Below are positions 20,415-63,662 of a stretch of 64,000 nt of DNA, one piece after another (the first letter of the stretch is position 1; every line of letters begins with the position of its first letter). The position numbers were made by a program, and so were the translations under genes. This DNA comes from Heptranchias perlo (taxonomy: Eukaryota). The DNA lies in the NCBI RefSeq assembly GCF_035084215.1, contig NC_090332.1, positions 34,906,001 through 34,970,000 on the forward strand, in the 5' to 3' direction. The notes beneath the pieces were generated by a model. That model was given only the letters and a program-made list of their open reading frames with translations. It did no database searches and was not told the DNA's origin.

Positions 20415-23324
20415 TCAAAAGCAAAATACTGCAGACACTAGAAATCTGAAATAAGAACAGAAAATGCTGGAAATACTCAGCAAGTCAGGCAGCATCTGTG
20501 GAGAAAGAAACAGAGTTATCGTTGCAGGTAAATGACCTTTCGTCAGAATTGGGAGAAGTTGAAGATTAAACCATTTTTAAGCAAGTACAGAACCAGGGAA
20601 AGGGGGAGTGGGAGGAAAGAACAAAAGGGAAGGTCTCTGATAGGGTGGAGAGCAGGAGTGGTTAAATGTCAAAAGAGATGATGGTGCAAGGCAAGGAGGG
20701 TGGTAATGGGACAAATAAAGAAACAAAAGATGGGTCTAGAGGAGCTGTAAATGGCAACAGCAGAACCTGCTGTCTTAAAAAAAAAATGGGAGCAGTGGCA
20801 ATGATCTGAAGTTACTGAAATCAATGTTGAGTCCAGAAGGTTGGAAAGTGCCTAATCAAAAGATGAAGCGCTGTTCCTCGAGCTTACGTGGAGCTTCATT
20901 GGAACAATGTAGGAGGCCGGGGACAGAGAGGTCCAAGTGGAAGTAGGTCAGAGAATTAAAATGGCAAGTGACTGGCAGGTCAGGGTTGCGCTTGCATGCT
21001 GAGTGGAGGTGTTCAGCAAAGCAATCACCCAATCTGTGTTTGGTCTCTCCAATGTAGAGGAGACCATATTGTGAGCAGCAAATACAGTATACTAAATTGA
21101 AAGAAGTACAAGTCAATTACTGTCTCACCTGGAAGGAGTGTTTGAGGCCCTGAATGGTGGGGAGGTGAAAGGGCAGGTGTTGCATCTCCTGCGCTCGCAT
21201 GGGGAGGAGTGAGGGGAAGACCGGTCCCTTCGGCATGCAGAAAGGGGAGGGGAAAATGTGTTTGGTGGTGGGATCACGCGGGAGATGGCGGAAATGGTGG
21301 AGGATGATTCGTTGAACGTGGAGGCTGGTGGGGTGGAAGGTGAGGACAAGGGGGACCCTATCATGGTTCTGGGAGGTAGGGGAAGGGGGGAGGTCAGAAG
21401 TGCGGGAAATGGAACGGTCACGGTTGAGGGCCCTGTCAACTACAGTGGAAGGGAATCTCGGTTGAGGAAAAAGGAAGACATATTGGAAGCAATGGTATGG
21501 AAGGTGGCATTGTCAGAACAGATGCAACGGAAGCGGAGAAACTGGGAGAAGGGAATAAAGTCCTTTCAGGAAGTGGGAGGAAGTGTAATCAAGGTAGCTG
21601 TGGGAGTCGGTGGGCTTATAATAGATATTGGTTGATAGTCTATTCCCAGAAATGGAGAAGTCGAGGAAGGGAAGAGTCAGAGATGGACCATGTAAAAGCG
21701 AGGGAAGGGTGGAAATTGGAAGCATTGATGAACTTTTCCAGTTTGGGGCAAGAGCAGGAAACGGTACCGATACATTCATCAATGTGCCGGAAAAATGTGA
21801 GGGAGGGGACCTGAGTAGGACTGGAACAAAGAACGTTCCACGAATCCCACAAGACTGGCATAGCTAGAACCCATAAGGGTTCCCATAGTGATACCTTTTA
21901 TTTGAAGGAAGTGAGTGGAGTCGAAGGAGAAATTGTTTAACGTAAGAACAAGATCAGCCAGCCGGAAGAGGGTGGTGGTGGATGGGGACTGGTTGGGCCT
22001 CCGTTCAAGGAACAAGCGGAGGGCCCGCAGGCTGTCCTGGTGGGGGATGGAGGTGTAGAGGGACTGGACGTCCATGGTAAAAAGGAGACTGTTACGGCTG
22101 GGGAACTGGAAACTGTTAAAGTGGCGGAGGGCATCGGAAGAGTTGCTGATGTAGGTCGGAAGAGACTGGACAAGGGGAGAAAAAAAATAAGTTCTGTGGG
22201 GCAACAGGCTGAAATGATGGGTCTACCAGGGCAGTCCTGTTTGTGGATCTTGGGAAGTAGAAGCGGGCTGTGCGGGGTTGGGGGACTATGAGGTTGGAGG
22301 CGGGCAGATCTCCAGAGGAGATGAGGTCAGTGACAGTCTAGGAAACCACGGCTTGATGTTCGGTGGTAGGCTCATGGTCCAGGGGGAGGTAGCAGGAGTT
22401 ATTGGAGAGTTGGCGTTCGGCCTCTGCAAGGTAGAGGTCTGTTTGCCACACAACAGCGCCGCCCCTGTCAGCAGGTTTAATGACAATGTCAGGGTTGGAC
22501 CTGAGGGTACGGAGTGCTGCAAAATCAGAGGTAGGTAGGTTAGAGTGAGTGAGGGGAGTAGAGAAATTAAGATGGCTAATGTCACGCCAGCAGTTCCCAA
22601 CGAAAAGATCAAGAGAGGGTAAGAGGCCAGAGGGAGGGGTCCACGAGGAATGAGAATTCTGAAGGTGGAAGAAAGGGTCCGCTGTGTGGGGGGAAGATTC
22701 CTGACCAAAGATGTGGATGCGGAACGGAAGGCGACAGAAGAAGAGCTCAGCATCGTGTCTAGCTGAAATTCAGTGAGGTGGGGGCGTAAGGGGATGAAGC
22801 TGAGGTCTTTGCTGAGGACTGATCGTTCGGGGTCAGAGGGGATAGTAGAAACACGACAAAAGGTGAGATTGGAGGAAGGGATGGGGTCGGAGGAAAGCGA
22901 TGGGGAAGAAGGATCGAAGATTTGTTGAAGCTTGTGTTCCTTGACACCTAAAAGAAGAAAAAAAGTTTTTTGTTAAAGCACCTGATGAGTCGAAGGATGA
23001 AATGGAACTGTGGAACAGGACAACTCTGAAGTAGAATGAGTCGGTACCGCTGGAGAGGTCGAGAGCGTGGATGTGGCGGCGCATGGCATTGAGCGTGAAT
23101 CTCAAGAAGCGACAAGAGCAGTGGTTCGAGGAACACTGAATATCATGGAGATATCTGTAATCACGGGTGGATCCGAAACACGAAGAGTGGAATTTAAGTT
23201 GGAATCCATATGGAATAAGTCGGAGCCGGAGGCAGTTGCTGAGGAAAGAGATGTGGCTGTGAAAGCGAGTTTTAGTAGAAACCTGATCAAACATGAGAAG
23301 GGAAACAGAATGCAATGAAGGTGA
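20415..23324 (-). mobile_element. Penelope-like element (RT + GIY-YIG), family B, frameshifted
   Basis: Fragments LFTMDVQSLYTSIPHQ, QIKGITMGTLMG, FFRHIDECIG, IYYKPTDSH and the GIY-YIG region NLVYCICCSQYGLLYIGETKHRLGDCFAEHL; TSD ACAATGACACA at 20404-20414 and 23325-23335. Degenerate hammerhead (GAAA changed to GCAA) at 20514-20550. Confidence 0.9.
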
Positions 23325-25126
23325 ACAATGACACAGTCACTTCTGCAGCTACATATTTCTAACACGAGATAGTTTCATAAGCTACAGATCCCATACCTAT
23401 TCCTACATCATTGCTAATGAATTTTAGAAAATTAACTTTCCCCTGGCTTTGTGAGCAACACCACAGGAGATCCACTGGTTTGCTTCATCTCATTAATCTA
23501 TGGCACCTGCATAGAGTAGACCAGCTGTGTTATACTCAGAGTGTTACCTTCTGCTGGTGTAAAAACCAAAAGTCAATAATGACTCATAACTACTTTTATT
23601 TTTATATATATTGTATTCATATCAGAGTAAATTATTTTTGGCTTCAAATGCTGTAAGTGCAGTAATCTTCAGAATGCTGGAAGATGTACCAAAAAGGTGT
23701 CAAAGATTAAAATTTCCTAGGGAACATGCCTGTAGCTCCATCTAGAAAATGCATTTTGCACCACAAGATCTGACCTTTTCCTTGAAAAATTTCCAAATCC
23801 GCCACTACAATAATTTCACTTTTGTATACTTTTAATTTTTGTCCGTCTATAATAGCTGCATCTTACGTCCAGATAAGCTATGGGATTCAGCTTTCACAGA
23901 AAAACAATCTGAATATTGCAGAATGTCATCCTAAAACACTTAAATATTGTGAAATCGGATGTAAAAAATTATTATTCACCATGAAACAGTGGCTTTAGTC
24001 AGAGGCCTTTATTCAAGGCTGATTTTCAGTTTTACGATTGAGTTATCAGCTTTTTTGAAGCTGTTTTGTCAGCTTTTCAAATTTGTGGAGGTTGCCATGT
24101 ATGGGTCTGCATCACTCAGTTACATGCTATTTTCATAACATACAATCCACATCATGTGTGAAATAACTAGGCTTGATCCATTTAATGGATGAAAAAAGTA
24201 AAAGTACAGATTTCAAAGTATAATCAAGCATAATTCTGATGAGCAGGTATGTAAAAGCAGGAGAGATGCACTTGTCTGAAGGATGAATTTAGTGTATTTC
24301 TTGCACTGATTTATACAGTATTGTTTTCTTATATGTGATCTGCCATATTGGTTAGTACAGATGATTTCCCTCTTCCCATTCTTCTTTCAGCACACAGTAT
24401 TCAAATGATCAAAAATCAAATGCACTTATTTCAGTTGGATGCCTGCTTTTTTCCAAAAGATTTTAACATGCATATTGAATATTGCAGGTTTACGTCCTGT
24501 TGGAAAATACTTTTTGTTTGTAAATAGGATGAGGTTAATGCATTTACTTTCATAATCTTTGCAACTTTTGTGCTGACTATTCTCAACGTATATCACTATT
24601 CACAAATTATAAAGGATTTCCCAGAGACATTTGAATCCAGTAAGTTTAACTCTACATACAAATAGCATATTTGAAAATGAAGCAATATCCTATGCCTCTA
24701 TTATTGACATTTTATTGATTAAAATTAATGTGCCTTGCATTTTCTCAGAAACTTGGAATGTATAAATGTTTGTAAACATTGCCTGAACAAGAAATTCTGT
24801 CCAACCAGGCAATTTTCTGAGCTATTAAACAATTTGAGCTTTCTTATTATGAATTCTTTTTCCAAAGGGCTGCTTTGGTAAAACATTGAGAAATATCCTG
24901 AAAGATGCCAGTCTTGTTTCTGTTATTTAATGTTAAGTTTCTCAAAATCATACTGTCAGATTTCAACACAACCTTTATGCCTGTAACAGAAAAGTTTCCT
25001 CCATCCATCTTTGAAGGGTTTTCCCTGAGCTGTCCAACTGAACACAGGGGTCTCCAGTGACAAAGTTCATGCTGTTAACAGGCCCTGTATTTCAAGGTAT
25101 AGAAATCCCACTGATGCGTCTCTTCT

Positions 25127-29225: not shown

Positions 29226-29467
29226 GAAGTTTAGTTACATTATAGGAGATATAATGTAGCTGAACCTATCTCAACTATCAAGAGGTGTACATGCTGCAGA
29301 GTGAGGTGGCCTGGGTCTGATTTTCTTCTCTCTTATGGTGACATGCTTGACTACTGTGAGCTGCAACAGCCAAGAACTTGGCGAAGGGCACACCTAATTT
29401 TGTTGGAGCAAAATGATTTGTAAGCATGGCCTCATGAGCAACTCCACGTGACAAGTCGATCCGCATC

Positions 29468-32400
29468 TTTTTTTTTATTCGTTCACGGGATGTTGGCGTC
29501 GCTGGCGAGGCCAGCATTTATTGCCCATCCCTAATTGCCCTCGAGAAGGTGGTGGTGAGCCGCCTTCTTGAACCGCTGCAGTCCGTGTGGTGACGGTTCT
29601 CCCACAGTGCTGTTAGGAAGGGAGTTCCAGGATTTTGACCCAGCGACAATGAAGGAACGGCGATATATTTCCAAGTCGGGATGGTGTGTGACTTGGAGGG
29701 CAACGTGCAGGTGGTGTTGTTCCCATGTGCCTGCTGCTCTTGTCCTTCTAGGTGGTAGAGGTCGCGGGTTTGGGAGGTGCTGTCGAAGAAGCCTTGGCGA
29801 GTTGCTGCAGTGCATCCTGTGGATGGTACACACTGCAGCCACAGTGCACCGGTGGTGAAGGGAGTGAATGTTTAGGGTGGTGGATGGGGTGCCAATCAAG
29901 CGGGCTGCTTTATCTTGGATAGTGTCGAGCTTCTTGAATGTTGTTGGAGCTGCACTCATCCAAGCAAGTGGAGAGTATTCCATCACACTCCTGACTTGTG
30001 CCTTGTAGATGGTGGAAAGGCTTTGGGGAGTCAGGAGATGAGTCACTTGCCGCAGAATACCCAGCCTCTGACCTGCTCTCGTAGCCACAGTACTTATATG
30101 GCTGGTCCAGTTAAGTTTCTGGTCAATGGTGACCCCCAGGATGTTGATGGTGGGGGATTCGGGGATGGTAATGCCGTTGAATGTCAGGGGGAGGTGGTTA
30201 GACTCTCTCTTGTTGGAGATGGTCATTGCCTGGCACTTATCTGGCGCGAATGTTACTTGCCACTTATGAGCCCAAGCCTGGATGTTGTCCAGGTCTTGCT
30301 GCAGGCGGGCTCGGACTGCTTCATTATTTGAGGGGTTGCGAATGGAACTGAACACTGTGCAGTCATCAGCGAACATCCCCATTTCTGACCTTATGATGGA
30401 GGGAAGGTCATTGATGAAGCAGCTGAAGATGGTTGGGCATAGGACACTACCCTGAGGAACTCCTGCAGCAATGTCCTGGGGCTGAGATGATTGGCCTCCA
30501 ACAACCACTAACATCTTCCTTTGTGCTAGGTATGACTCCAGCCACTGGAGAGTTTTCCCCCTGATTCCCATTGACTTCAATTTTACTAGGGCTCCTTGAT
30601 GCCACACTCGGTCAAATGCTGCCTTGATGTCAAGGGCAGTCACTCTCACCTCACCTCTGGAATTCAGCTCTTTTGTCCATGTTTGGACCAACGCTGTAAT
30701 GAGGTCTGGAGCCGAGTGGTCCTGGCGGAACCCAAACTGAACATCGGTGAGCAGGTTATTGGTGAGTAAGTGCCGCTTGATAGCACTGTCGCTGACACCT
30801 TCCATCACTTTGCTGATGATTGAGAGTAGACTGATGGGGCGGTAATTGGCCGGATTGGATTTGTCCTGCTTTTTGTGGACAGGACATACCTGGGCAATTT
30901 TCCACATTGTCGGGTGGATGCCAGTGTTGTAGCTGTACTGGAACAGCTTGGCTAGAGGCGCAGCTAGTTCTGGAGCACAAGTCTTCAGCACTACAGCTGG
31001 GACATAGCCTTTGCTGTATCCAGTGCACTCAGCCGTTTCTTGATATCACGTGGAGTGAATCGAATTGGCCGAAGACTGGCTTCTGTGATGGTGGGGATAT
31101 CGGGAGGAGGCCGAGATGGATCATCCACTCGGCACTTCTGGCTGAAGATGGTTGCAAACGCTTCAGCCTTGACTTTTGCACTCACGTGCTGGACTCCGCC
31201 ATCATTGAGGATGGGGATGTTTGCAGAGCCTCCTCCTCCCGTTAGTTGTTTAATTGTCCACCACCATTCACGACTGGATGTGGCAGGACTGCAGAGCTTT
31301 GATCTGATCCGTTGGTTGTGGAATCGCTTAGCTCTATCTATAGCATGTTGCTTCCGCTGTTTAGCATGCATGTAGTCCTGAGCTGTAGCTTCACCAGGTT
31401 TGCACCTCATTTTTAGGTACGCCTGGTGCTGCTCCTGGCATGTTCTTCTACACTCCTCATTGAACCAGGGTTGATCCCCTGGCTTGTTGGTAATGGCAGA
31501 GTGAGGAATATGCCGGGCCATGAGGTTACAGATTGTGGTGGAATACAATTCTGCTGCTGCTGATGGCCCACAGCGCCTCATGGATGCCCAGTTTTGAGCT
31601 GCTAGATCTGTTCTGAATCTATCCCATTTAGCACGGTGGTGGTGCCACACAACACGTTGGATGGTGTCCTCAGTGCGAAGACGGGACTTCATCTCCACGA
31701 GGATTGTGAGGTGGTCACTCCTACCAATACTGTCATGGACAGATGCATTTGCGACAGGTAGATTGGTGAGGACGAGGTCAAGTAAGTTTTTCCCTCGTGT
31801 TGGTTCGCTCACCACCTGCCGCAGGCCCAGTCTGGCAGCTATGTCCTTCAGGACTCGGCCAGCTCGGTCAGTAGTGGTGCTACCGAGCCACTCTTGGTGA
31901 TGGACATTGAAGTCCCCCACCCAGAGTACATTTTGTGCCCTTGCTACCCTCAGTGCTTCCTCCAAGTGGTGCTCAACATGGAGGAGGACTGATTCATCAG
32001 CTGAGGGAGGACGGTAGGTGGTAAGCAGCAGGAGGTTTCCTTGCCCATGTTTGACCTGATGCCATGAGATTTCATGGGGTCCAGAGTCAATGTTGAGGAC
32101 TCCCAGGGCCACTCCCTCCTGACTGTATATCACTGTACCGCCACCTCTGGTGGGTCTGTCCTGCCGGTGGGACAGGACATACCCAGGGATGGTGATGGAA
32201 GAGTCTGGGATGTTGGCTGAAAGGTATGATTCTGTGAGTATGGCTTTGTCAGGCTGTTGCTTGACTATTCTGTGGGACAGCTCTCCCAATTTTGGCACAA
32301 GTCCCCAGATGTTAGTAAGGAGGACCTTGCACGGTCGACTGGGCTTGGTGTTTTGCCGTAGTCGTGTCCGATGCCGGGTGGTCCGTCCGGTTTTATTCTT

Positions 32401-32754
32401 ATTATGACTTTTCGTAGCGAGGTTTTACAACTGAGTGGCTTGCTAGGCCATTTCAGAGGGCAATTAAGAATCAACCACATTGCTGTGGGTCTGGAGTCAC
32501 ATATAGGCCAGACCGGGTAAGGATGGCAGGTTTCCTTTCCTAAAGGACATTAGTGAACCAGATGGGTTTTTACGACAATCCGGTAGTTTCATGGCCATCA
32601 TTACTGATACTAGTATTTTAATTCCAGACTTTATTTAATTAATTGAATTTAAATTCGCCAGCTGCCGTGGCAGGATTTGAACTCATGACTCTGGATTTTA
32701 GTCCAGGCCTCTGGATTACTAGTCCAGTAACATAACCACTATGCTACCGTACCC
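29468..32754 (-). mobile_element. Near full-length single-ORF LINE (APE endonuclease + RT) with tRNA-derived 5' head and poly(A) tail
   Basis: APE motifs (LTES, GDFNVHH, LDLVL, SDH) in 30991-32424 and RT motifs (NYRPISLLS, QFGFR, LDIKAAFDRV, GVPQGSVL, FADD) in 29531-30991, separated by one 13-nt deletion; A9 tail at 29468-29476; no TSD seen. Confidence 0.93.
32660..32754 (-). promoter_or_regulatory. tRNA-Thr(AGU)-like head with internal Pol III promoter boxes
   Basis: A box TAGCATAGTGG (32746-32736), anticodon arm CTGGA-CTAGTAA-TCCAG, B box GAGTTCAAATCC (32684-32673). Confidence 0.8.
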
Positions 32755-33542: not shown

Positions 33543-34678
33543 GTGTCTGAAGTGCTATCTCTCTCTTCCCCTGTGGTATGAAATTTTGTGTCTGTCCAAA
33601 CTTCTCTCTTTCTCTGAACTCTCCTCTGTCTGTTCAAAGTACTGTCGTAAGCCCTCCTGATCTCCCTGGTAATTTGGGCTCATCTTGCGATTGCACACGG
33701 TACATTAGTAAATATGGTCACTCTTTACATGTCTCTGGTGTCTTTGTGTTGCTGTGTTTCTCTCTTCCACCCCCCCCCCCCACACCCCTCCTCTGCTTCT
33801 GTCACTCTTTTTCATATTCTTGCAAGTGGGAGGTGGTCGGTAATATGGTATGGTGAGATGGGGAAGGAACTACCAACTGCTGCAGGCTGCAAGCCCATGA
33901 ATATCTTCCAGTGCTACCAAAGTGCAGGACTGCCCCATTCTCTATCCCCAGTACTGCTGAATACCAGGGGATGAATTTCTGCAGGGTTTCTTCTGCTCAC
34001 CTACTGTAGCTTCAACAGAAAAGCTATGGAAATACTGGAAAAATGGAGTAAACCTCTTTTATAAATTCCTATGTTGACATTTATAGGTTTACATAGGCAA
34101 AACCTATCACAGTGTAATTACACAAATCTGGCCAGTGTGTGTGAACAGTTTTTCAGCATTTCCAGAGAGTCACTCTCCGGAAACTTTCAGAGACTCTGTC
34201 CACCATCTTGTTTACTTGAGGCTTTTTACTTCTACATTTTTAAGACTTTAATCCTCTCCCTCCCCCCCGAAACAGTGTATTGCCACCTTTCAGCCTCCTG
34301 CCTCCCCTAAAGTTAATAAAATCAGGTTCTTGACTGGTCTTAGTGACCTCCTCTTCACCCACTCCTGGGGTTCCAACCTAGTGTTTGTTAATTTAATTTT
34401 AATTTCAATATTTATTTTGAACTTTCATAAAATGTAAGATAAAATAACACACCGTTTGTCAAATTTGGTGCAACTTGATAATTCCCTTCCTTCCCCAGCT
34501 GCTGCTGCAGTCCCGGCCCCTAATGTAGCCCCTGGCCATTAACTCTAGCCATCACAGCCCCAATTCCAAATTGGATGGTGTGCATCCACGTCGACTCTGC
34601 TGACCTCAGCCACACTGGCAGGATTGTATAATTACAGTTTGATGACTTATTAAAGACACAGCTTCCAATATAAATGTG

Positions 34679-37093
34679 TAGAACAGCAGACAGAGGGATC
34701 CGCGGTACAGCAACCGAAGAGGAAAGAGTCAAACTGGACTCCTCCGGAGGGTCGCTGCCCTCAGCTGGACATGTATGCTCAAGCTGTCAGGAAATGCGTC
34801 AATGCCAGATTCATCAGGCGCACTCAGAAGACAGTCCAGAATGTCACCCGAGTACAACGCAACGCCATCAACGCTCTCAAGACCAACCGCAACATCGTCA
34901 TCAAACTAGCGGACAAAGGAGGAGCCATAGTCATACAGAACAGAACGGACTATTGCAAAGAAGCATACCGACAACTGGACAACCAGGAACACTACAGACG
35001 GTTACCCGCAGATCCGACCAAAGAACACACCCACCAGCTCAACAAACTGATCAAGACCTTCGATCCAGACCTTCAAAGCATCCTACACACTCTCATCCCA
35101 CGTACTCCCCGCGTGGGAGACTTCTACTGCCTCCCAAAGATACACAAAGCCAACACACCCGGACGTCCTAGCGTATCAGGCAACGGAACCCTGTGTGAGA
35201 ACCTCTCTGGATACATCGAGGGCATCCTGAAACCCATCGTACAGGGAACCCCCAGCTTCTGTCGCGACACTACAGACTTCCTACAAAAACTCAGTACCCA
35301 CGGACCAGTTGAACCAGGAACACTTCTCACCACGATGGACGACTCGGCACTCTACACCAGTATCCCCCACGATGACGGCATCGCTGCGACAGCATCAATA
35401 CTCAACACCAACAACAGCCAATCTCCGGACGCCATCCTACAACTCATCCGCTTCATCCTGGATCACAATGTCTTCACCTTCGATAACCAGTTCTTTACCC
35501 AAACACACGGAACAGCCATGGGGACCAAATTTGCACCCCAATACGCCAACAATTTCATGCACAAGTTCGAGCAGGACTTCTTCACTGCACAAGACCTCCA
35601 ACCAACACTATACACCAGATACATCGACGACATTTTCTTTCTATGGACCCACGGCAAGGAATCACTAAAGAGACTACACGATAACATCAACAAGTTCCAT
35701 CCCACCATCAAGCTCACCATGGACTACTCCTCAGAATCAGTTTCTTTCTTGGACACACGAATCTCCATCAAAGACGGGCACCTCAGCACCTCACTCGACC
35801 GCAAGCCCACAGACAACCTCACGATGCTCCACTTTTCCAGCTTCCACCCTAACCACGTCAAAGAGGCCATCCCCTATGGACAGGCCCTGCGAATACACAG
35901 GGTCTGCTCAGACAAGGAGGAACGCGATGGACACCTACAGACGCTGAAAGATGCCCTAGTAAGAACGGGATATGACGCTCGACTCATCGATCGACAGTTC
36001 CGACGGGCCACAGCAAAAAAATCGCATAGACCTCCTCAGGAGACCAACACGGGACGCAACCAACAGAGTACCCTTTGTCGTCCAGTACTTCCCCGGAGCG
36101 GAGAAACTACGCCATGTTCTCCGCAGCCTTCAACATGTCATCAATGACGACGAACACCTCGCTATGGCCATCCCCACACCTCCACTACTCGCCTTTAAAC
36201 AGCCACCCAACCTCAAACAGACCATCGTTCGCAGCAAATTACCTAGCTTTCAAGAGAACAGCGTCCACGACACCACACAACCCTGCCACGGTAACCTCTG
36301 CGAGACATGCCAGATCATCGACACAGATACCACCATCACACGAGAGGACACCACCCACCAGGTGCATGGTTCATACTCCTGTGACTTGGCCAACGTTGTT
36401 TACCTCATACGTTGCAGGAAAGGATGCCCCGGAGCATGGTACATTGGCGAGACCATGCAGACGCTGCGACAACGGATGAACGGACACCGCGCAACAATCG
36501 CCAGACAGGAGGGTTCCCTCCCAGTCGGGGAACACTTCAGCAGTCATGGACATTCATCCACCGACCTTCGGGTAAGCGTACTCCAAGGCGGCCTTCGAGA
36601 CACACGACAACGCAAAATCGTCGAGCAGAAATTGATAGCCAAGTTCCGCACCCATGAGGACGGCCTCAACCGGGATCTTGGGTTCATGTCACGCTACACG
36701 TTACCCCACCAGCGAACAAATGTTATCTGTTTTTAATATAACGGGTCAGTTGCTGTCTTTTCTATGTTTCTACCTCTCTATCTCTGTTTTTTTTTGTTTG
36801 TTGTTTTTTTTTGGTGATTTGTATATTCTGAGACCTTGCAGGTAACACCTGTCTGTCTGCACACTGATTGCCTTGGCAACGGGCAGTTGAAAAAACTGTC
36901 TGTAATCACCAAGCATTGTTCTGTGAATTATAAATGCGATTTCATTTCGAGGATTTCATTTCCACATCGTTCACCTGAGGAAGGAGGAAGCCTCCGAAAG
37001 CTTGTGAATTTAAAATAAAATTGCTGGACTATAACTTGGTGTTGTAAAATTGTTTACAATTGTCAACCCCAGTCCATCGCCGGCATCTCCACA
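34679..37093 (+). mobile_element. Penelope-like element (RT + GIY-YIG), family A, 5'-truncated and young
   Basis: ADKGGAIV, FYCLPKIHK, QTHGTAMGTKFAP, RYIDDIF, FLDT, then GIY-YIG NVVYLIRC...WYIGET; a single frameshift at an A7 run (36015-36021); TSD CAATATAAATGTG at 34666-34678 and 37092-37104. Confidence 0.95.
36970..37008 (+). ncRNA. Minimal type I hammerhead ribozyme motif in the PLE 3' terminal region
   Basis: ttcac-CTGAGGA-a-GGAGG aag CCTCC-GAAA-GCTT-gtgaa. Confidence 0.8.
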
Positions 37094-38703: not shown

Positions 38704-40398
38704 CTGTGAAAATAGTAACAGGAACAGCTTCAAACATGAAGCGCCCAATAGGTTTCCTTCAATATTTAAACATGCCATATTCTAAAACAAAATGGTATCA
38801 AATAACATCTGTTCTCTATTTGTTGCAAAACAGGATTTATTCTCAACTTCCAATTGATTTCCCATATTTCTTTATTTTTCTCCCCAATACTGAAACCATT
38901 TTTTTTAATAAAACTTGTCCGTAACATACCCCTCAATGTTTCTGAAGAAAACATTATTGAGATGAATATTGGCAGAGATAATTAAATGCTCCACAGAACA
39001 TTTTGGTTTCTGATCAAATGCTCCACAAACATTTTTGGTTCTGTGCTGCTGGGGCCATGGTGGAAAGCAAACAGACAGGTGCAAGTGTAGATCGATGTTG
39101 TGAAGTTTTGCTCAATCATATTTAGAGATTCGTGGTTAACTTTTGCAGAACTTTCTCTCAGAATATTAAATATGAGTAGAGAGTCCATGATGTAACAGAG
39201 TGTGCATGTTCTGTGAAAGAAATAGGTTTCATGGGCTCTTCTTTTTCCATTTTTTTTTATGATAGAGGGAATCTACTGCAGTGGTTCTCAAAACATTTCT
39301 TTAGGCTTGGTTCAATACTTAAAACTTTTTTGCGATAGTCTCCAAAGTAATTTCATAGTTGCTTGCTTCCTTCTCTAAAAGGATATGGATACAGGTCTGC
39401 AAAAAAAGTCTTCCCCTCTTCACTTTCATTTCTTTATCTTCCTCTTCATTTTTCTCTCTTGCTCTTCATGCTCCTTTACTTCAGTCACTTTTTCACTTCC
39501 CTTTTTCTCTTCCATTTACACTTCTTCTGTTTGGCTCTGCAACACTTCTTGTCCATACTGCCTGCAGTATTTACTGTCTTATTAACAGACAACAGGGATG
39601 AAACGTGAGGGGTGAGGAGGAGGGATGGGAGTGGGCCATTGAGTTGCAGGAGTGAGATGATATGGACTGGAGCTAATTGGCAGGAATCATTGCAGTTGTT
39701 ACTCTGGTACTAGTGTAATTCAGACATGTTAAAAATAATACATATCAATTTGATCTTTTCCCAGCCTCTCTCTGCACTCCACCTGAGTGTGTCCATGGTT
39801 TGAGAATTATTGGTCAATAAACAGTAATTTGAACTGCCATCCAGTGGCAGTAATTAAGCACTCCAACAGATTCTAGATATATTGTATCACATAGGAAAAG
39901 GATCTCCACACTGCTTTGATGGAAAAAGGGAGTACACATACTAGCCAAAAATAAAATATCATCTGTATCACCATAATTCAATCCTGATCAGGTCTCTGTT
40001 TTTAACATTACATTAGCGTGGGGAGTACGTTTGAACAAATAGTTCAGAACAAAACATTAAATGCAAGATGCTGCAGCTTCAGAAATACCTTGGAAGTGCA
40101 ATAGAGGTGGAAAACTTTTAATCTACAATCTGAAGTTCTAAGTGCAAAAAACAAGGCTACTTTAATGTTTACCTTCTCCCTTCCCATGAAAAAAGTGATG
40201 AATAAATCATTTTGTTCAGCGATGAAGGGCTTTTACTCTAATGTGTTAAAAGCAGGGCTATCCTTTCCCCTCTTCAAGGATAAAACAGCTTTTGTAAATC
40301 AACAAACGAGTAACTTGCAGTCAACTTGATGTGTTTAAGAACTTCACCCTCAAAATTCAGGGTAAATTTCAGCTGCTCACAGCACTTTGTGCACTCAC

Positions 40399-40533
40399 CT
40401 CTACTACTTGATCTGCTTCTACTTCTTGAGGATGACGATGACGACAAACTCGAAGACAATGAACTTGATGATGATGTTGAGGTCACGGAAGAGGACCTAC
40501 TTCTGCTTCGTTTCCTTTTTCTTTTTTCTTTTC
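40399..40533 (-). CDS. Ser/Arg/Lys-rich protein, coding exon 2 (KEKRKRKRSRSRSSSVTSTSSSSSLSSSLSSSSSSRSRSRSSSR)
   Basis: ttcttttataaag acceptor, GAG|GTGAGT donor, 135 nt, phase 1/1; RS dipeptides and poly-Ser. Confidence 0.85.
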
Positions 40534-42638
40534 CTTTATAAAAGAACATTTGCATATTTGGAATAGTGGATAACAGTTTATGAACAAAATTCATCAGCTT
40601 TCTTATACATATTGTCATAAAGCCGAAAGTTAGAAACTGAATTACCAAAGATATGAAGTTTTCCTTCAGTGCTGCTACAAGTTTTATTTTAAAACTTTCA
40701 GAAATTCTTGACTGGATACTGAAGCCAACTGTGTAACTACCTACCCCCAACAACACCTGACAACCCGAGACCAGTTAGCTCAGGATGTGCCTGACGTGTA
40801 TGGCACAATATCACACTATTCAGAGTGACAGCTTCCCACTAAGCCACTGGATGAACAATTTAAGTTGATTAAAGTAAAGATTTTGTATAGTCATTAATGC
40901 TGAAATATCCTGATAGTGTGAAACTTTACAGATTTATGGAAAATAGTGTGGTAGGAATTGCAGGGCTGTATACAGTATGTGTGTTTTTCAAGAAAGTATG
41001 TTTATAAAAAAAAGTTTTAATTTATATTTTTAATTATTTTTTCTTCTTTCAAGTTCGCACTTTGGTATTCTATTCCCTGCTGTCTATGTCCAGCCGGTTG
41101 TTAGCCTCCAATGCACCACAGCCCATTCTTGGATGTCGCACATGCGGGCAGCCCTCCCCGCAGAAGAGCTGAATGTGTTTCCTACCTGGGACGCATTCTC
41201 TGTCACTCCTTCACTGTCCTGTTATTTGGTCAGTCTACCCCCAACTGCACCACTGTATAACGTGGAATGGACTTAGATCCTACCATAAATCAATTTTCCA
41301 GCTAACCTTGAATCTGCTTCTGTTTTGGCATGTTCTGCGCCCAAGCTGTTCCCACTCCACTCTAAAATCCAAATGACTAACTATGCATTGTTTTGTACAC
41401 ATTATATGACCTTCATTATAAGTAGAGGGGACTCTCTCCTCCACCATCACTGTCATCTCTCAGTCATTGTCCAATTATTGGTCATTCATTCACACTTCAC
41501 CTAAACGTTCTGCTGGTCTCAACTCCATGTGTGTAACTCCACAGGAGGTTGACTGGTATATTAAAAGTTTACCACTTTACATGCACTTCCTATTTGTCAC
41601 ACTTTATTTGTAAGGTTTTTATCATGCCAGACAGTCACACCAGGGTGTAATGCCTAGAACTGTTTTTAAACTAAGAATTATTTTTAAATTGTAAGGCTTC
41701 TATACTTACAATACTTACCACGTCTCCTAATGTTAGGTGGCACTGCTGCTCCTCCAAAATTTGTCTCCCACCTACATTACTCCAAGTAGCACCGCAAGTA
41801 AGCTTTAGACAGTTTTTTCTTTTGTTCCAGCAGGTAAATTTATATTAAGTTTATTTAAATTTATAGTTTATATTTATACTTTCTTTTAATATGATGGGGA
41901 AACTGAAGGAAAAAGTAGATAACTCTTTCAGAGAGCTAGCAAAGGAACAATAGGCTGAACAGCCTTCTTCTATGCTGTAAAACTTTATTATACTAAATTT
42001 ATTTTAACTTCACTTACTGTGATTTACTTATTTTGTGTCAGCTGCCTCCACAGGCCTGCCTGTCCGCACTGCTGTGAAGCCTCATGACTCCAGCTACCTG
42101 ACCTCCCTCTTGCCCCACTATCTGATTTGATACTAATTTGGATGCTCACACTCCCCGTTCTCAACAGCCCCAGTCCTGCTACATGCTGTTATGTCTAGTC
42201 CTCCCTCTCCATCCCACACCTACCTGACTTTCATCCTCATTGGTGCTCCAAGCAGCAACTCCACCTCTGGCCATTTTCTTGTCAGACCTTGCAGCCTTCC
42301 TTCACATGCCTAGCGCTGGAAAAATTAGCAATTTTTTTTTTTAAAAGCACTTATAGTGCTATATTCTGCCACCATAAAATGCAACCTGCAGCCCTCAGTA
42401 ACTCCCTTCCCCTAACACATGAAAGAAAAGAGAAAAAAGCAGCATAGAGAAACAAGAAAGAAGTGAAATTGGGAGATGAAAAGAGATGAGAGAGAGACAA
42501 TGGAGGCAGAAGAGGAGACAGACAGAAAGTAAACACCAACATGAACAGAACAGATAGAAAAGACTTGCATTTATATAGCGCCTTTCACAACCTCAGGATG
42601 TCCCAAGCTGCTTTCCAGCCAATTAAGTAATTTTGAAG

Positions 42639-45047
42639 CAAAAGCAAAAGCAAAATACTGCAGATGCTGGAAATCTGAAATAAAAACAGAAAATGCTGGA
42701 AAAGCTCAGCAAGTGAGGCAGCATCTGTGGAGAAAGAAACAGAGTTAACGTTTCAGGTCGAAGACCTTTCGTCAGAACTGGAAGATGTTAAAGAGTTAAA
42801 GTTTTTAAGTAAGTACAGAGCCTGGGAATGGGGGGGGGGGAAAGAGAGGGGAGGGGAGGAAAGAACAAAAGGGAAGGTCTGCGATAGGGTAGAGGGCAAG
42901 AGTAATTAAATGACAAAAGGGATGATGGTGCATGGCAAGGAGGTTGGTAATGGGACAAGTTAAGAAACAAAAGATCAGTCTAGAGGAGCTGTAAATGGCA
43001 ACAGAAAACCAATACCAGCAGCTGCAGTGCAACAAATAAAAAGGAAAGAAAAACAAAAAAAAATGGGAGCAGTAGTTATGATCTGAAGTTATTGAAATCA
43101 ATAATGTTGAGTCCGGTAGGTTGTAAAGTGCCTAAACGAAAGATGAGGTGCTATTCTTCGAGCTTCCGTTGGGCTTCATTGGAATGGTGTAAGAGGCCAA
43201 GGACTAACGGGGACCTTGTCATGGTTCTGGGAGAGAGGGGAAGGGGTGAGGGCAGAAGTGTAGGAAATAGGACGGACACGGTCGAGGGCCCTGTCAACTA
43301 CAGTAGAGGGGAATCCTCGGTTGAGGAAAAAGGAAGACATATCGGAAGCACTGGTGTGGAAGGTGGTATCGTTAGAACAGATGCGATGGAGAAACTGGGA
43401 GAAGGGAATAGAGTCCTTACAGGAAGCAGGATGGGAGGAAGTGTAATCAAGGTAGCTGTGGGAGTTGGTGGGCTTATAATAGATATTGGTTGACAGGCTA
43501 TCCCCAGAAATGGAGAGAGAGAAGTCGAGGAAGGGAAGGGAAGAGTCGGAGATGAACCATGTGAAGGCGAGGGAAGGGTGGAAATTGGAAGCAAAGTTGA
43601 TAAAATTTTCCAGTTCAGGGCAAGGGCAGGAAGTGGCACTGATATAGTCATCAATACATCAGAAAAAGAGGTGAGGGAGGGGACCAGAGTAGGACTGGAA
43701 CAAGGAATGTTCCACGTATCCCACAAAAAGGCAGGCATAGCTGGGACCCAAATGGGTTCCCATAGCGACACCTTTTATTTGCAGGAAGTGACTGGATTCA
43801 AAGGAGAAGTTGTTCAATGTAAGAACTAATTCAGCCAAGTGGAGGAGGGTGGTGGTGGATGAGGACTGGTTGGGCCTCCATCCAAGGAAGAAGCGGAGGG
43901 CCCGCAGGCTGTCCTGGTGGGGGATGAAGGTGTAGAGGGACTGGACGTCCATGGTGAAAAGGAGACGATTAGGGCTGGGGAACTGGATACCGTTAAAGTG
44001 GCAGAGGGTGTCAGAAGAGTCACGGACGTAGGTTGGAAGAGACTGGACAAGGGGAGAAAAAATGAGTTGAGAAAGAAGGGAATAAGTTCTGTGGGGCAAG
44101 AACAGGCTGAAACGATGGGCCTCCCAGGGCAATCCTGTTTGTGGATCTTGGGAAGAAGGTAGAAGTGGGCTACACAGGGTTGGGGGACTATGAGGTTGGA
44201 GGCCGTTGGTGGAGGGAAGATCTCCGGAGGAGATGAGATCAGTAGTGGTCTGGGAAACTATGGCTTGGTGTTCGGCAGTGGGTCATGGTCCAGGGGGAGG
44301 TAGGAGGAAGTGTCGGAGAAATGGCGTTCAGCCTCTGCAAGGTAGAGGTCTGTTCGCCAAACAACAGTGCCGCCCTTGTCAGCAGGTTTAATGACAATGT
44401 CAGGGTTGGACCTGAGAGAACAGGGTGCTGCAAGTTCAGAGGGAGGTAAGTTAGAGTGAGTGAGGGGAGTAGAGAAATTAAGATGGCTGGTGTCACGCCG
44501 GCAGTTCCCAATGAAAAGATCAAGAGAGGGTAAGAGGCCAGAGGGAGGGGTCCAGGTGGAACTAGAATTCCGAACGTAGGAGAAAGGTCCGCAGCGTGGG
44601 GGGTGGGGAAGACTCCTGGCCAAAGAAGTGGGTGCAGAGGTGGACGCGACGGAAGAAGAGCTCAGCATCACATCCAGCTCGAAATTCACTGAGGTGGGGG
44701 CGTAAGGGGCTGAAGCCGAGGCCTTTGCTGAGGACAGATTGTTCAGGGTCAGGGAGGGGAAGGTCAGAGGGGTTAGTGAAAACACAAAGGGTGAGATTGA
44801 TGGGAGGGGTGGGGTCAGAGGAAAGTGAAGGAGAAGAAGGATGAGGAGAGGCATTGGTATCTAAGCGTTGTTGAAGCTTGTGGTCCTTAACACCTGAAAG
44901 GAAGAAGAAAAGTGCTGGATGAGGCGAAGGATGAAATGGAACTGCGGAACAGGACAACTCTGAAATAGAGTGAGTCGGTACTGCTGGAGAGAGAGGTCGA
45001 GAGCGGGCATGTAGCGACGCATGGCAGAGCGTGGATCTCAGGAAGAG
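42639..45047 (-). mobile_element. Penelope-like element, family B, inserted into a SINE
   Basis: IKPADKGGTVVW, LFTMDVQSLYTFIPHQ, QIKGVAMGTHLGPSYA; colinear with 20415-23324 but with an internal deletion near 43205; TSD AAGTA(A/T)TTTTGAAG at 42625-42638 and 45048-45061. Confidence 0.9.
42743..42779 (-). ncRNA. Minimal type I hammerhead ribozyme motif in the family-B PLE tail
   Basis: Minus strand: agtt-CTGACGA-a-AGGTC ttc GACCT-GAAA-CGTT-aact, with palindromic AACGTT at stem III. Confidence 0.8.
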
Positions 45048-62904: not shown

Positions 62905-63662
62905 TCTCCTTTTTGTTGTGATGTGGGTGAGCTGACAAAGCGGCATTTATTTTCCATCCATAGTTGAGAAGGTGGTAGTGGGCATCCTTGAACTGCTGCA
63001 GTTCTTGTGTTGATGGTGCTCTCATAATGGCGTTGGGTAGAAAATTGCAGGATTGTGATCCATCGATGATGAGAGTATATGACGATTGGGAGTATATGTC
63101 CAAGGTAGTGTGATGTGTGACTTGGAGGGGAATTTGAAGGTCTTGGTGTTTCCGTGACGTTCTTCTCAGTAGTAAGGATATGGATCTGGAGGATGCTGTC
63201 AAATTAAGCTTGGTGAGTTGCTGCAGTGCATCCTGTAGACAGCATATACTGCTACTACAATGCAGAGAACCGATCAATTGGACCGCTTTGTCCTGGATGG
63301 TATTGAGCTTCTTGACTGTCGTTACAATAGCACTCGTTCAGCTGAGTGGTGAGCATTCCATCATACTCCTGATTTGGGCTTTGTAGATGGTAGAAAGGCT
63401 TCGAGGGGTCAGCAGGTGAATCAGAATACTCTGCCTCTGCCTTGCTCTGGTAGCCATGGTGTTGATAAAGTTGATCCATTCAAGTTTCTGATCAATGGTG
63501 ACCCACCCAAGATGTTGACTGAGGACTCAGTGCTGGTGGTTAGGTTTTTTCATTTTGGAGATGGCCATTGCCTGGCACTTATGAAGTACAAATATCAGCC
63601 CAAGCTTGGATGTTGTCCAGGTCCTGCTGTATGGGCTGCTTCTTAACAGAGGAGCTGTGAAT
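62905..63662 (-). mobile_element. Third, heavily decayed 3' fragment of the APE-RT LINE family
   Basis: gagaaggtggtagtggg...cttgaactgctgcag, gtgtgacttggaggg and ggagatggccattgcctggcactta match 29540-30300. Confidence 0.85.

What the first reader, a model, noticed from the sequence alone, without database searches (positions are those of the whole stretch)
29468..32754. Candidate RNA polymerase III-driven protein-coding LINE: tRNA head plus 3.3 kb with no TTTT on the sense strand
Seen: the element begins with a tRNA-Thr(AGU)-like head (A box 32746-32736, B box 32684-32673), followed by about 240 nt of UTR and directly the APE-RT frame, with no ORF1. Reading the plus strand line by line I found no AAAA between 29468 and 32754 (no sense TTTT) and only about 7 AAA, while plus-strand TTTT occurs more than a dozen times. 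The diverged copy at 56940-58510 also has no sense TTTT, whereas the neighbouring PLE ORF does (e.g. 35633, 35833). Established: vertebrate Pol III terminates at runs of 4 or more T; LINEs are normally Pol II transcripts and tRNA heads normally define non-autonomous SINEs. Inference: this family may be an autonomous retrotransposon transcribed by Pol III from a captured tRNA promoter, with its coding sequence purged of terminators.
Basis: partly seen in the sequence, partly recalled or inferred. Interest (0 to 1): 0.9.

Follow-up and report, generated by a model that had tools for sequence, protein, structure and literature searches.

The report
tRNA-headed, AUG-less protein-coding shark LINE
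This is a frameshifted copy of an abundant 3.3-kb jumping gene that begins with a tRNA-type promoter, lacks the T-runs that stop RNA polymerase III and has no normal start codon for its enzyme, so it is likely made by the polymerase normally kept for short non-coding RNAs and would need an unusual way to start translation.

Summary
Observation confirmed: no sense TTTT over 3.3 kb, the window's longest such gap. It is a family, about 6% of a 200-kb genome sample. Of 29 copies picked on the endonuclease alone, 24 start at the tRNA-like +1, 5 are truncated and none starts otherwise. The A and B boxes are intact but the cloverleaf is broken; the head is closer to tRNA-Gln than to Thr. TTTT absence alone is weak (codon shuffle P~0.09). 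TTT depletion is strong (observed/expected 0.42-0.45, against 0.98±0.10 in 63 related LINE ORFs, none of them TTTT-free). New here: no ORF1 and no in-frame AUG before the endonuclease. 76 of 91 copies have an in-frame stop just upstream, yet the frame below it is under purifying selection and keeps its phase up to a fixed GCT. That GCT could pair with a hairpin loop as in dicistrovirus IRESs, but there is no covariation. SINEs arose from this LINE by internal deletion. Best reading: a Pol III-made, likely uncapped RNA with AUG-independent initiation (0.55). No transcript data. This scan noted the family before in other genomes; my word search of its notes found none on an AUG-less start.

The parts
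29468..32754 (-). Whole element: single-ORF APE-RT LINE copy with tRNA-like head and A9 tail; 92-97% identical to the other full-length copies held
32661..32754 (-). tRNA-derived head starting GGGTACGG at +1; acceptor stem 3-4 of 7 pairs and T stem 3 of 5, against 7 of 7 and 5 of 5 in a real tRNA-Gln gene
32736..32746 (-). Pol III type-2 A box (TAGCATAGTGG)
   Evidence: consensus from established knowledge
32691..32727 (-). Duplicated anticodon arm (32727-32711 and 32706-32691); some older copies have a single arm
32673..32684 (-). Pol III B box (GAGTTCAAATCC; the same GAGTTCAAATC lies in the genome's tRNA-Gln genes)
32419..32660 (-). Structured 5' leader, kept in the derived SINEs; 9 ATGs lie upstream of the frame (7.5 expected), none reaching the ORF in frame. 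One helix (32562-32553 with 32500-32490) has a compensatory U-A to A-U change between subfamilies
32436..32450 (-). Hairpin with a 7-nt loop CUAGCAA; the loop's AGC is complementary to the in-frame GCT at 32418-32416 (candidate codon-anticodon mimic, no covariation). An in-frame ATG-GCC-TAG overlaps it
32425..32427 (-). In-frame TAA two codons upstream of GCT, present in 76 of 91 copies scored
32326..32418 (-). Basic K/R/T-rich leader peptide beginning A-T-K; recurrent length variants all keep the frame
30991..32325 (-). APE endonuclease and linker. The first in-frame ATG (31692) is residue 245, after the catalytic GDFN (170) and SDH (236) motifs
29531..31045 (-). RT and C-terminal part; split from the endonuclease frame in this copy by a 13-nt deletion near 31002. 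Other natural copies are open over 951-973 codons
29468..29530 (-). 3' UTR with AATAAA (29522-29517) and A9 tail; the first flanking TTTT lies 54 nt downstream at 29413
56932..58512 (-). Older 5'-truncated copy (73% identical), 0 sense TTTT in 1,581 nt
62943..63629 (-). Very old 3' fragment (66% identical), 1 sense TTTT in 687 nt

Best explanation
This is a single-ORF endonuclease/reverse-transcriptase LINE family that starts at a tRNA-derived A/B-box head and is likely transcribed from it by RNA polymerase III as a 3.3-kb, probably uncapped RNA, which would be translated from a non-AUG start set by its 5' leader. Shown: fixed +1 start, intact boxes on a broken cloverleaf, T-run depletion, no ORF1, no usable AUG, a protein-constrained frame from the GCT codon on, and SINEs made by internal deletion. 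Inferred: TFIIIC/Pol III transcription running through the short A tail to a flanking T-run, as for Alu; cap-independent loading of ribosomes. Weakest step: that the hairpin loop AGC pairs with GCT as a codon-anticodon mimic so that the next codon is decoded first, as in dicistrovirus IGR IRESs (about 0.3 on its own). The protein would then insert its own RNA by target-primed reverse transcription and also move the derived SINEs.
For: Start: 24 of 29 copies selected on the endonuclease reach +1 with unrelated flanks, 5 are truncated or inverted, none has another 5' sequence. Contigs of organisms A and B end at 32754 with unrelated loose ends (38 and 72 contigs). Promoter, not tRNA fold: acceptor stem 3-4 of 7 in the 11 of 30 copies with exact boxes. 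Terminators: 30 full-length copies average 0.13 T4 against 19 A4, 11 C4 and 6 G4. TTT observed/expected is 0.42-0.45 against 0.98±0.10 (minimum 0.68) in 63 related ORFs, 1.0 in CR1 and 1.25 in Penelope; 0 of 63 lack T4. The window copy has no TCTTT or TATTT either, the shortest terminators in PMC8466645 (abstract). The older subfamily has no T4 among column majorities. No AUG: first M at residue 245; an in-frame TAA in 76 of 91 copies. Leader lengths keep frame in 72 of 81 copies (classes 79/82/94/97 nt); in the older subfamily GCT to AAT is mostly 18 or 21 nt (read). Among TAA-bearing copies, shared variants between GCT and the first M are 17 synonymous to 13 nonsynonymous against 92 to 210 for private ones (P=0.007, CpG and TpA hot spots removed; the other two frames P=1). 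Of 35 full-length relatives, the 6 with no AUG near the endonuclease all have an upstream ORF of 170-393 aa, so 'no ORF1 and no AUG' is peculiar to this family and fits an uncapped RNA.
Against: No transcript evidence of polymerase, 5' chemistry or translation. TTTT absence is not significant against codon shuffles (P 0.07-0.09) or a dinucleotide model (0.12), since the strand is T-poor (19.5%) and TT-poor. The two-ORF CR1 also lacks T5 in ORF2 (0 vs 2.5, P 0.02-0.03), so some U-run avoidance is general. The subfamilies differ by only a few percent, so they are not independent trials. One T4-making change is shared by 3 of 76 copies. PMC10886601 (passages) attributes the 100-700 bp size of SINEs to weak Pol III processivity. 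The leader alone shows no significant codon bias once TpA hot spots are removed (3:2 vs 10:28, P=0.15). In the older set the whole GCT-to-endonuclease distance is in frame in only 10 of 20 worn copies. 6 of 91 copies have an open AUG frame through the hairpin. The proposed pseudoknot is 3-4 bp, shorter than the 4-5 needed in IAPV (PMC4132737, passages); no amplified compensated variant was found (6 and 23 double mutants against 7,449 junctions); Rfam gave no IRES match.
Confidence: 0.55

Rival explanations
1. Pol II LINE with a captured SINE front end: the head and leader act as, or sit in, a Pol II internal promoter; the RNA is capped and the ORF is made by AUG-independent re-initiation after a short upstream ORF (ATG-GCC-TAG in the hairpin, or the 77-codon +1-frame ORF), as for L1 or SART1 ORF2. 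T-run loss reflects avoidance of U-rich processing signals.
For: LINE promoters are thought to be Pol II and are often replaced; ORF2 initiation is unconventional and depends on upstream translation (PMC2881922, passages). Short upstream ORFs exist. CR1 avoids T5 too. An AATAAA lies 45 nt before the tail.
Against: It does not explain intact A/B boxes on a broken cloverleaf, the start at tRNA +1, or a TTT deficit beyond all 63 relatives. ATGs are not avoided in the leader (9 vs 7.5), though PMC3894237 (passages) expects selection against them under cap scanning. The hairpin ATG is GTG in 15 of 23 older copies with a base there, and the +1-frame ATG is often ACG. Substitutions show no constraint on the +1 frame.
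Confidence: 0.25
2. Pol III makes the RNA, but it is capped or otherwise handed to scanning ribosomes, or the masters use the hairpin AUG with stop read-through; no RNA structure positions the ribosome.
For: 6 of 91 copies have an open AUG frame, MAEQATQLYN.... Capping of Pol III pre-tRNAs is reported in yeast (PMC13451320, search listing only). The pseudoknot lacks covariation.
Against: The youngest and commonest form has TAA, usually with TAG as well, in frame; synonymous alleles that are absent or rare in TAC copies spread among TAA copies, so TAA masters were translated. The open-AUG copies can be explained by the TpA hot spot.
Confidence: 0.12
3. The element is co-transcribed from host Pol II units and cut at the tRNA-like +1 by RNase P or a ribozyme, as R2 is cut from pre-rRNA; the head is a processing signal, not a promoter.
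For: It would give a precise, uncapped 5' end and need cap-independent translation. [quoted passage not shown]
Against: Acceptor and T stems, which RNase P reads (established knowledge), are broken while the boxes are intact. No ribozyme family matched. T-run depletion is left unexplained.
Confidence: 0.08

Closest known systems
tRNA-derived SINEs (SINE2), including HE1/HER1 and SacSINE1 or CmiSINEs with L2-2_CM in cartilaginous fishes (PMC3747384 passages; PMC5499810 part 2 of 6 and passages)
   Same: tRNA-derived head with A and B boxes, conserved body, LINE-type tail; the 370-520 nt derivatives found here have exactly this layout.
   Different: Here the head and body are also the 5' end of the protein-coding LINE itself. 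Whether the derived SINE is one of the named families could not be checked: Repbase and Dfam are not searchable here and the paper's supplement was unavailable.
Bipartite non-autonomous LINEs and SINEs with LINE-derived bodies (RTE, Ingi, Vingi, R2; PMC5786205, passages and section 23)
   Same: Short elements made of a LINE's 5' and 3' ends by internal deletion.
   Different: In that model the LINE is Pol II and the tRNA head is added afterwards; here the deletion products inherit the head from the LINE, at several distinct junctions.
R2 retrotransposons
   Same: Single ORF; made by a polymerase other than Pol II; suspected IRES translation (PMC2881922, passages).
   Different: R2 has no promoter of its own, a restriction-like endonuclease and a fixed rDNA target; this element has an internal tRNA-type head, an APE domain and scattered sites.
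Dicistrovirus IGR IRES (CrPV, IAPV; PMC4132737, passages)
   Same: Works-like candidate only: a hairpin loop that could pair with an in-frame triplet just before a non-AUG first codon. PMC3894237 (passages) raises such IRESs in non-LTR elements as a hypothetical.
   Different: No Rfam match, only 3-4 pairs, no covariation, PKII/PKIII not established.
CR1-group single-ORF LINEs (labelled CR1-Zenon-like in the whale shark preprint 10.1101/443036, passages)
   Same: APE-RT protein, abundant in sharks; fragments lie in Heptranchias and Rhincodon gene models at 73-83% identity.
   Different: Clade not assigned: the protein falls apart from this genome's two-ORF CR1, with unnamed 37-40% relatives (quick tree). 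No B box was found near the ORF start of the 73 metagenome relatives scored.
TRIMp3 (Cassandra, Helenus, Ajax; PMC10886601, passages)
   Same: Retrotransposons other than SINEs that carry a Pol III promoter.
   Different: Those are short, non-coding LTR elements.

Membership tests
Autonomous APE-type LINE | APE endonuclease and RT in one open frame | tested here: met
   Pfam hits; open 951-973 aa frames in 3 of 30 full-length copies; the window copy is frameshifted
Autonomous APE-type LINE | Interspersed copies with a fixed 3' end and 5' truncation | tested here: met
Autonomous APE-type LINE | Target-site duplications | tested here: inconclusive
   6 bp or longer in 4 of 34 copies against 8 of 1,122 mismatched pairs; mostly absent or very short
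Autonomous APE-type LINE | Pol II transcription | not testable with these tools
   no raw RNA reads available
Canonical two-ORF CR1 (HER1-like) | ORF1 upstream of ORF2 | tested here: not met
   only about 330 nt lie between +1 and the frame; separate from this genome's CR1 in the tree
CR1-Zenon clade | RT phylogeny with named reference elements | not testable with these tools
   no named references were returned
tRNA-derived SINE (SINE2) | tRNA-derived head with A and B boxes | tested here: met
tRNA-derived SINE (SINE2) | Short and non-coding | tested here: not met
   3.3 kb with a constrained ORF; met only by the derivatives, 10 of 29 head-selected hits
Pol III type-2 transcription unit | No internal T4+ terminator | tested here: met
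   TTTT alone P 0.07-0.09 against codon shuffles
Pol III type-2 transcription unit | TFIIIC/Pol III occupancy, 5' triphosphate RNA | not testable with these tools
   needs experiment
Dicistrovirus IGR IRES | Non-AUG start directly after a tRNA-mimic pseudoknot (PKI) | tested here: inconclusive
   no AUG, and frame constraint reaches the GCT; AGC:GCU pairing possible in most copies; no compensated subfamily
Dicistrovirus IGR IRES | Match to the family covariance model | tested here: not met
   no IRES hit at E<=10 on the window's 5' end or at E<=5 on four loci
Dicistrovirus IGR IRES | Factor-independent ribosome binding | not testable with these tools
   needs toeprinting or reconstituted translation
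SacSINE1 / Deu-SINE | Deu domain and L2-2_CM tail | not testable with these tools
   supplement unavailable

The most novel reading that the evidence does not exclude
An autonomous retrotransposon that runs wholly outside the Pol II/cap pathway: Pol III makes a 3.3-kb uncapped mRNA from a captured tRNA promoter, the coding strand is purged of terminators, and a cellular, virus-like tRNA-mimic IRES starts translation without AUG or initiator tRNA; its SINEs are its own deletion products.
Probability: 0.25. Interest if true: 0.97.

Novelty: new variant of a known kind. Interest (0 to 1): 0.8.

Why it matters
The usual split is that LINEs are Pol II and coding, SINEs Pol III and non-coding (stated in PMC10886601 and PMC5786205). 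A family filling several percent of a vertebrate genome that looks Pol III-driven and coding would break it, give a natural 3-kb Pol III mRNA, and show a direct route to SINE birth by deletion. The missing AUG makes it cheaply testable: the 330-nt leader can go on a reporter. If it works like an IGR IRES, it would be a chromosomal example of a mechanism described in viruses, and a compact Pol III expression cassette.

Tried and rejected
One-off SINE-LINE chimera: rejected. Hidden ORF1 or longer 5' end: rejected, flanks are unrelated. tRNA-Thr origin: not favoured over Gln. A conserved near-cognate start codon: ACG after GCT varies (AAG, AAA, ACA) and TTG is followed by TAA. The +1-frame overlapping ORF as the real protein: no codon bias. 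Free variation of the second loop base as structural evidence: dropped, it is a TpA mutation hot spot; for the same reason the leader result (10:3, P=0.0025) was redone and lost significance. Compensatory change in the proposed pseudoknot: 4 of 6 and 10 of 23 double mutants are complementary, as expected from transitions and marginals (about 8 of 23). Terminal terminator as in B2-type SINEs: T4 or longer before the A tail in 9 of 88 scored 3' ends (11 of 99 not scored), most have one T; not decisive. Expression: no RNA holder listed; only contigs laid. Viral contigs: nothing. Relaxed ARAGORN on metagenome relatives gave noise; Rfam on 15 of the 80 found no tRNA. A search for older subfamilies with worn copies returned the young family or weak hits. 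Careful tree not finished; quick tree used. PDB: only L1 ORF2p and R2. Literature: 10 full-text searches, judged from listings plus the passages cited, showed no paper describing a tRNA-headed coding LINE or an IGR-type IRES in a LINE; the library lacks most subscription journals and Repbase Reports, so a consensus may already be filed under a CR1-type name.
Full report
Observation. The stated T-run gap, boxes and domains are in the sequence. The element runs 32754 to 29468 on the minus strand. This copy is broken by a 13-nt deletion near 31002. The host is inferred to be a cartilaginous fish from 73-83% protein hits in Heptranchias perlo and Rhincodon typus gene models.

It is a family with a fixed head. 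A head-plus-ORF query returned 40 scored copies of 2,834 candidates. To avoid circularity I searched with the endonuclease region alone (29 non-self loci held of 40 scored): 24 reach the head at positions 2-16, 5 are truncated or inverted, and flanks are unrelated. Family sequence makes up 13.1 kb of 200 kb in 20 arbitrarily placed stretches, and 7,449 places match an exact leader-ORF junction pattern. An older subfamily, found by its junction pattern, also joins head or leader to the ORF. Contigs from four coded organisms cover all 30 bins; loose ends pile at 32754 in two of them, and a leader-to-tail joint occurs in all four.

The head keeps promoter boxes but not the tRNA fold: ARAGORN calls nothing, Rfam aligns only model positions 8-63, and the acceptor stem pairs at 3-4 of 7 positions in the 11 of 30 copies with exact boxes. 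Of the two genomic tRNAs compared it is closer to Gln than Thr in single-arm form and near a tie in the window copy.

T-runs. Thirty full-length copies average 0.13 T4 (4 copies have one each) against 19 A4. In three intact natural ORFs, T4 is 0 against about 2.1 expected under codon-preserving shuffles (P 0.07-0.09) and TTT is 5-6 against 12-13 (P 0.003-0.005); Phe is 2% and mostly TTC. Controls: CR1 ORF2 from this genome has 7 T4 and TTT as expected, but no T5 (P 0.02-0.03); the Penelope ORF, with even less T, has T4 and no TTT deficit. Among 80 metagenome relatives, the 63 with frames of 500 aa or more give TTT observed/expected 0.98±0.10, minimum 0.68, and none lacks T4; the family is at 0.42-0.45. 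Two shorter relative frames (372 and 401 aa) do lack T4. So the avoidance is real and specific at the TTT level, while TTTT alone would not prove it.

No start codon. In the window copy and in two of the three intact copies the first in-frame ATG is residue 245, after the endonuclease's catalytic motifs; in the third it is a substitution at residue 174. Upstream, the frame is closed by TAA in 76 of 91 copies and usually by TAG as well; 6 of 91 have an open AUG frame. The frame is nevertheless protein-constrained. Leader lengths fall in classes of 79, 82, 94 and 97 nt, and 72 of 81 keep frame. Young-versus-old differences in the endonuclease are 10 synonymous to 5 nonsynonymous. Among TAA-bearing copies, with CpG and TpA hot spots removed, shared variants from GCT to the first M are 17:13 against 92:210 private (P=0.007), the other frames show nothing, and the leader alone is not significant (P=0.15). 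The A-rich stretch right after GCT is mostly 18 or 21 nt to the next anchor in old and young copies, though only 10 of 20 worn old copies are in frame over the whole leader. Of 35 full-length relatives, 6 lack an AUG near the endonuclease and all 6 have an upstream ORF1-sized frame; this family has neither.

Leader structure. The leader folds modestly (z -1.9). One helix has a compensatory change between subfamilies (100 U-A, 23 A-U of 127), a single evolutionary event. A hairpin with loop CNAGCAA lies about 17 nt upstream of the in-frame GCT; the spacer changes sequence among three subfamilies but not length, and loose-end consensus in other organisms keeps GCTA at a similar place (low agreement). 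AGC:GCU resembles the codon-anticodon mimic of dicistrovirus IGR IRESs (PMC4132737, passages). Against it: 3-4 pairs only, no Rfam match, no compensated subfamily, and the old set was selected on this motif. I rate it about 0.3.

SINEs. Of 29 head-selected hits, 10 are short elements joining leader to tail at several junctions, 4 have larger internal deletions and 15 continue into the ORF. Older ones keep varying bits of the ORF's start and end, which points to deletion from a headed LINE rather than capture of a finished SINE; how the LINE first got its head is not shown.

Mechanism. Most likely Pol III starts at +1, reads a terminator-free 3.3 kb, and stops at a flanking T-run (54 nt downstream here). 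The RNA would be uncapped, which fits the unavoided upstream ATGs (9 against 7.5) and the absent AUG. I put Pol III at about 0.65, AUG-independent initiation at about 0.8, and the joint reading at 0.55. The main rival is a Pol II RNA with re-initiation after a short upstream ORF (0.25).

What is known. Ten literature searches showed no description of a tRNA-headed coding LINE; Repbase, Dfam and one relevant supplement could not be seen, so the family probably has a name as a repeat. Papers were seen as follows: passages (PMC4824008, PMC11481361, PMC10886601, PMC4132737, PMC2881922, PMC3747384, 10.1101/443036); passages plus a section or part (PMC5786205, PMC3894237, PMC5499810); abstract (PMC8466645); listing only (PMC13451320). 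Polymerase III terminator and promoter rules and RNase P recognition are from general knowledge. This scan's notes report the same kind of element in other genomes; they are not independent support. A word search of the notes for a non-AUG or IRES reading found none, and only the first lines of the notes were visible.

Verdict. Real, family-wide and unusual; a new variant of LINE on what is shown, categorically new if Pol III transcription and structure-driven initiation are confirmed. Interest 0.8.

Noticed in passing
young copies of the family (L031-L068 and window): T in TpA mutates at 5.5% per site against about 1.2% for T in other contexts and 7.3% for CpG; highest in CTA, to C and G alike. 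An unexplained TpA mutation hot spot in this genome or in this element's copying.
   Followed up: partly
L154, L160, L162 (CR1 ORF2): The two-ORF CR1 has no T5 run in ORF2 against about 2.5 expected.
   Followed up: no
P0001: A Heptranchias perlo 'aldo-keto reductase 1B1-like' gene model contains about 215 residues of this LINE's protein: annotation artefact or exonisation.
   Followed up: no
G000:C38:2.56-4.08 Mb (L189): Many tRNA-Gln(TTG) genes, several spaced about 3.1 kb apart: a tandem array.
   Followed up: no
L052, L066, L053 and others: Copies often lack target-site duplications, and some appear to join the target through short microhomology at the 5' end, inside other repeats.
   Followed up: partly
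window 34654-36736 (+); 43176-44860 and 22286-23336 (-): A near-complete Penelope-like element split by one frameshift, and worn Penelope-like fragments; Penelope identity is from recalled motifs plus an RT hit.
   Followed up: partly
P0004, P0041, P0045, P0057: Distant relatives carry 2A-like N-terminal motifs (..NPGP); this family does not (motif as in PMC3894237).
   Followed up: no
P0009, P0011, P0015, P0016, P0037: Several close protein relatives are also Phe-poor (2.3-3.0%), and P0009 has a similar basic leader; their DNA could not be fetched to look for a tRNA head or T-run loss.
   Followed up: no
window 60259-60774 (+) and 40274-40774 (-): Open frames that may be host exons (one charged, one Ser/Arg-rich).
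   Followed up: no
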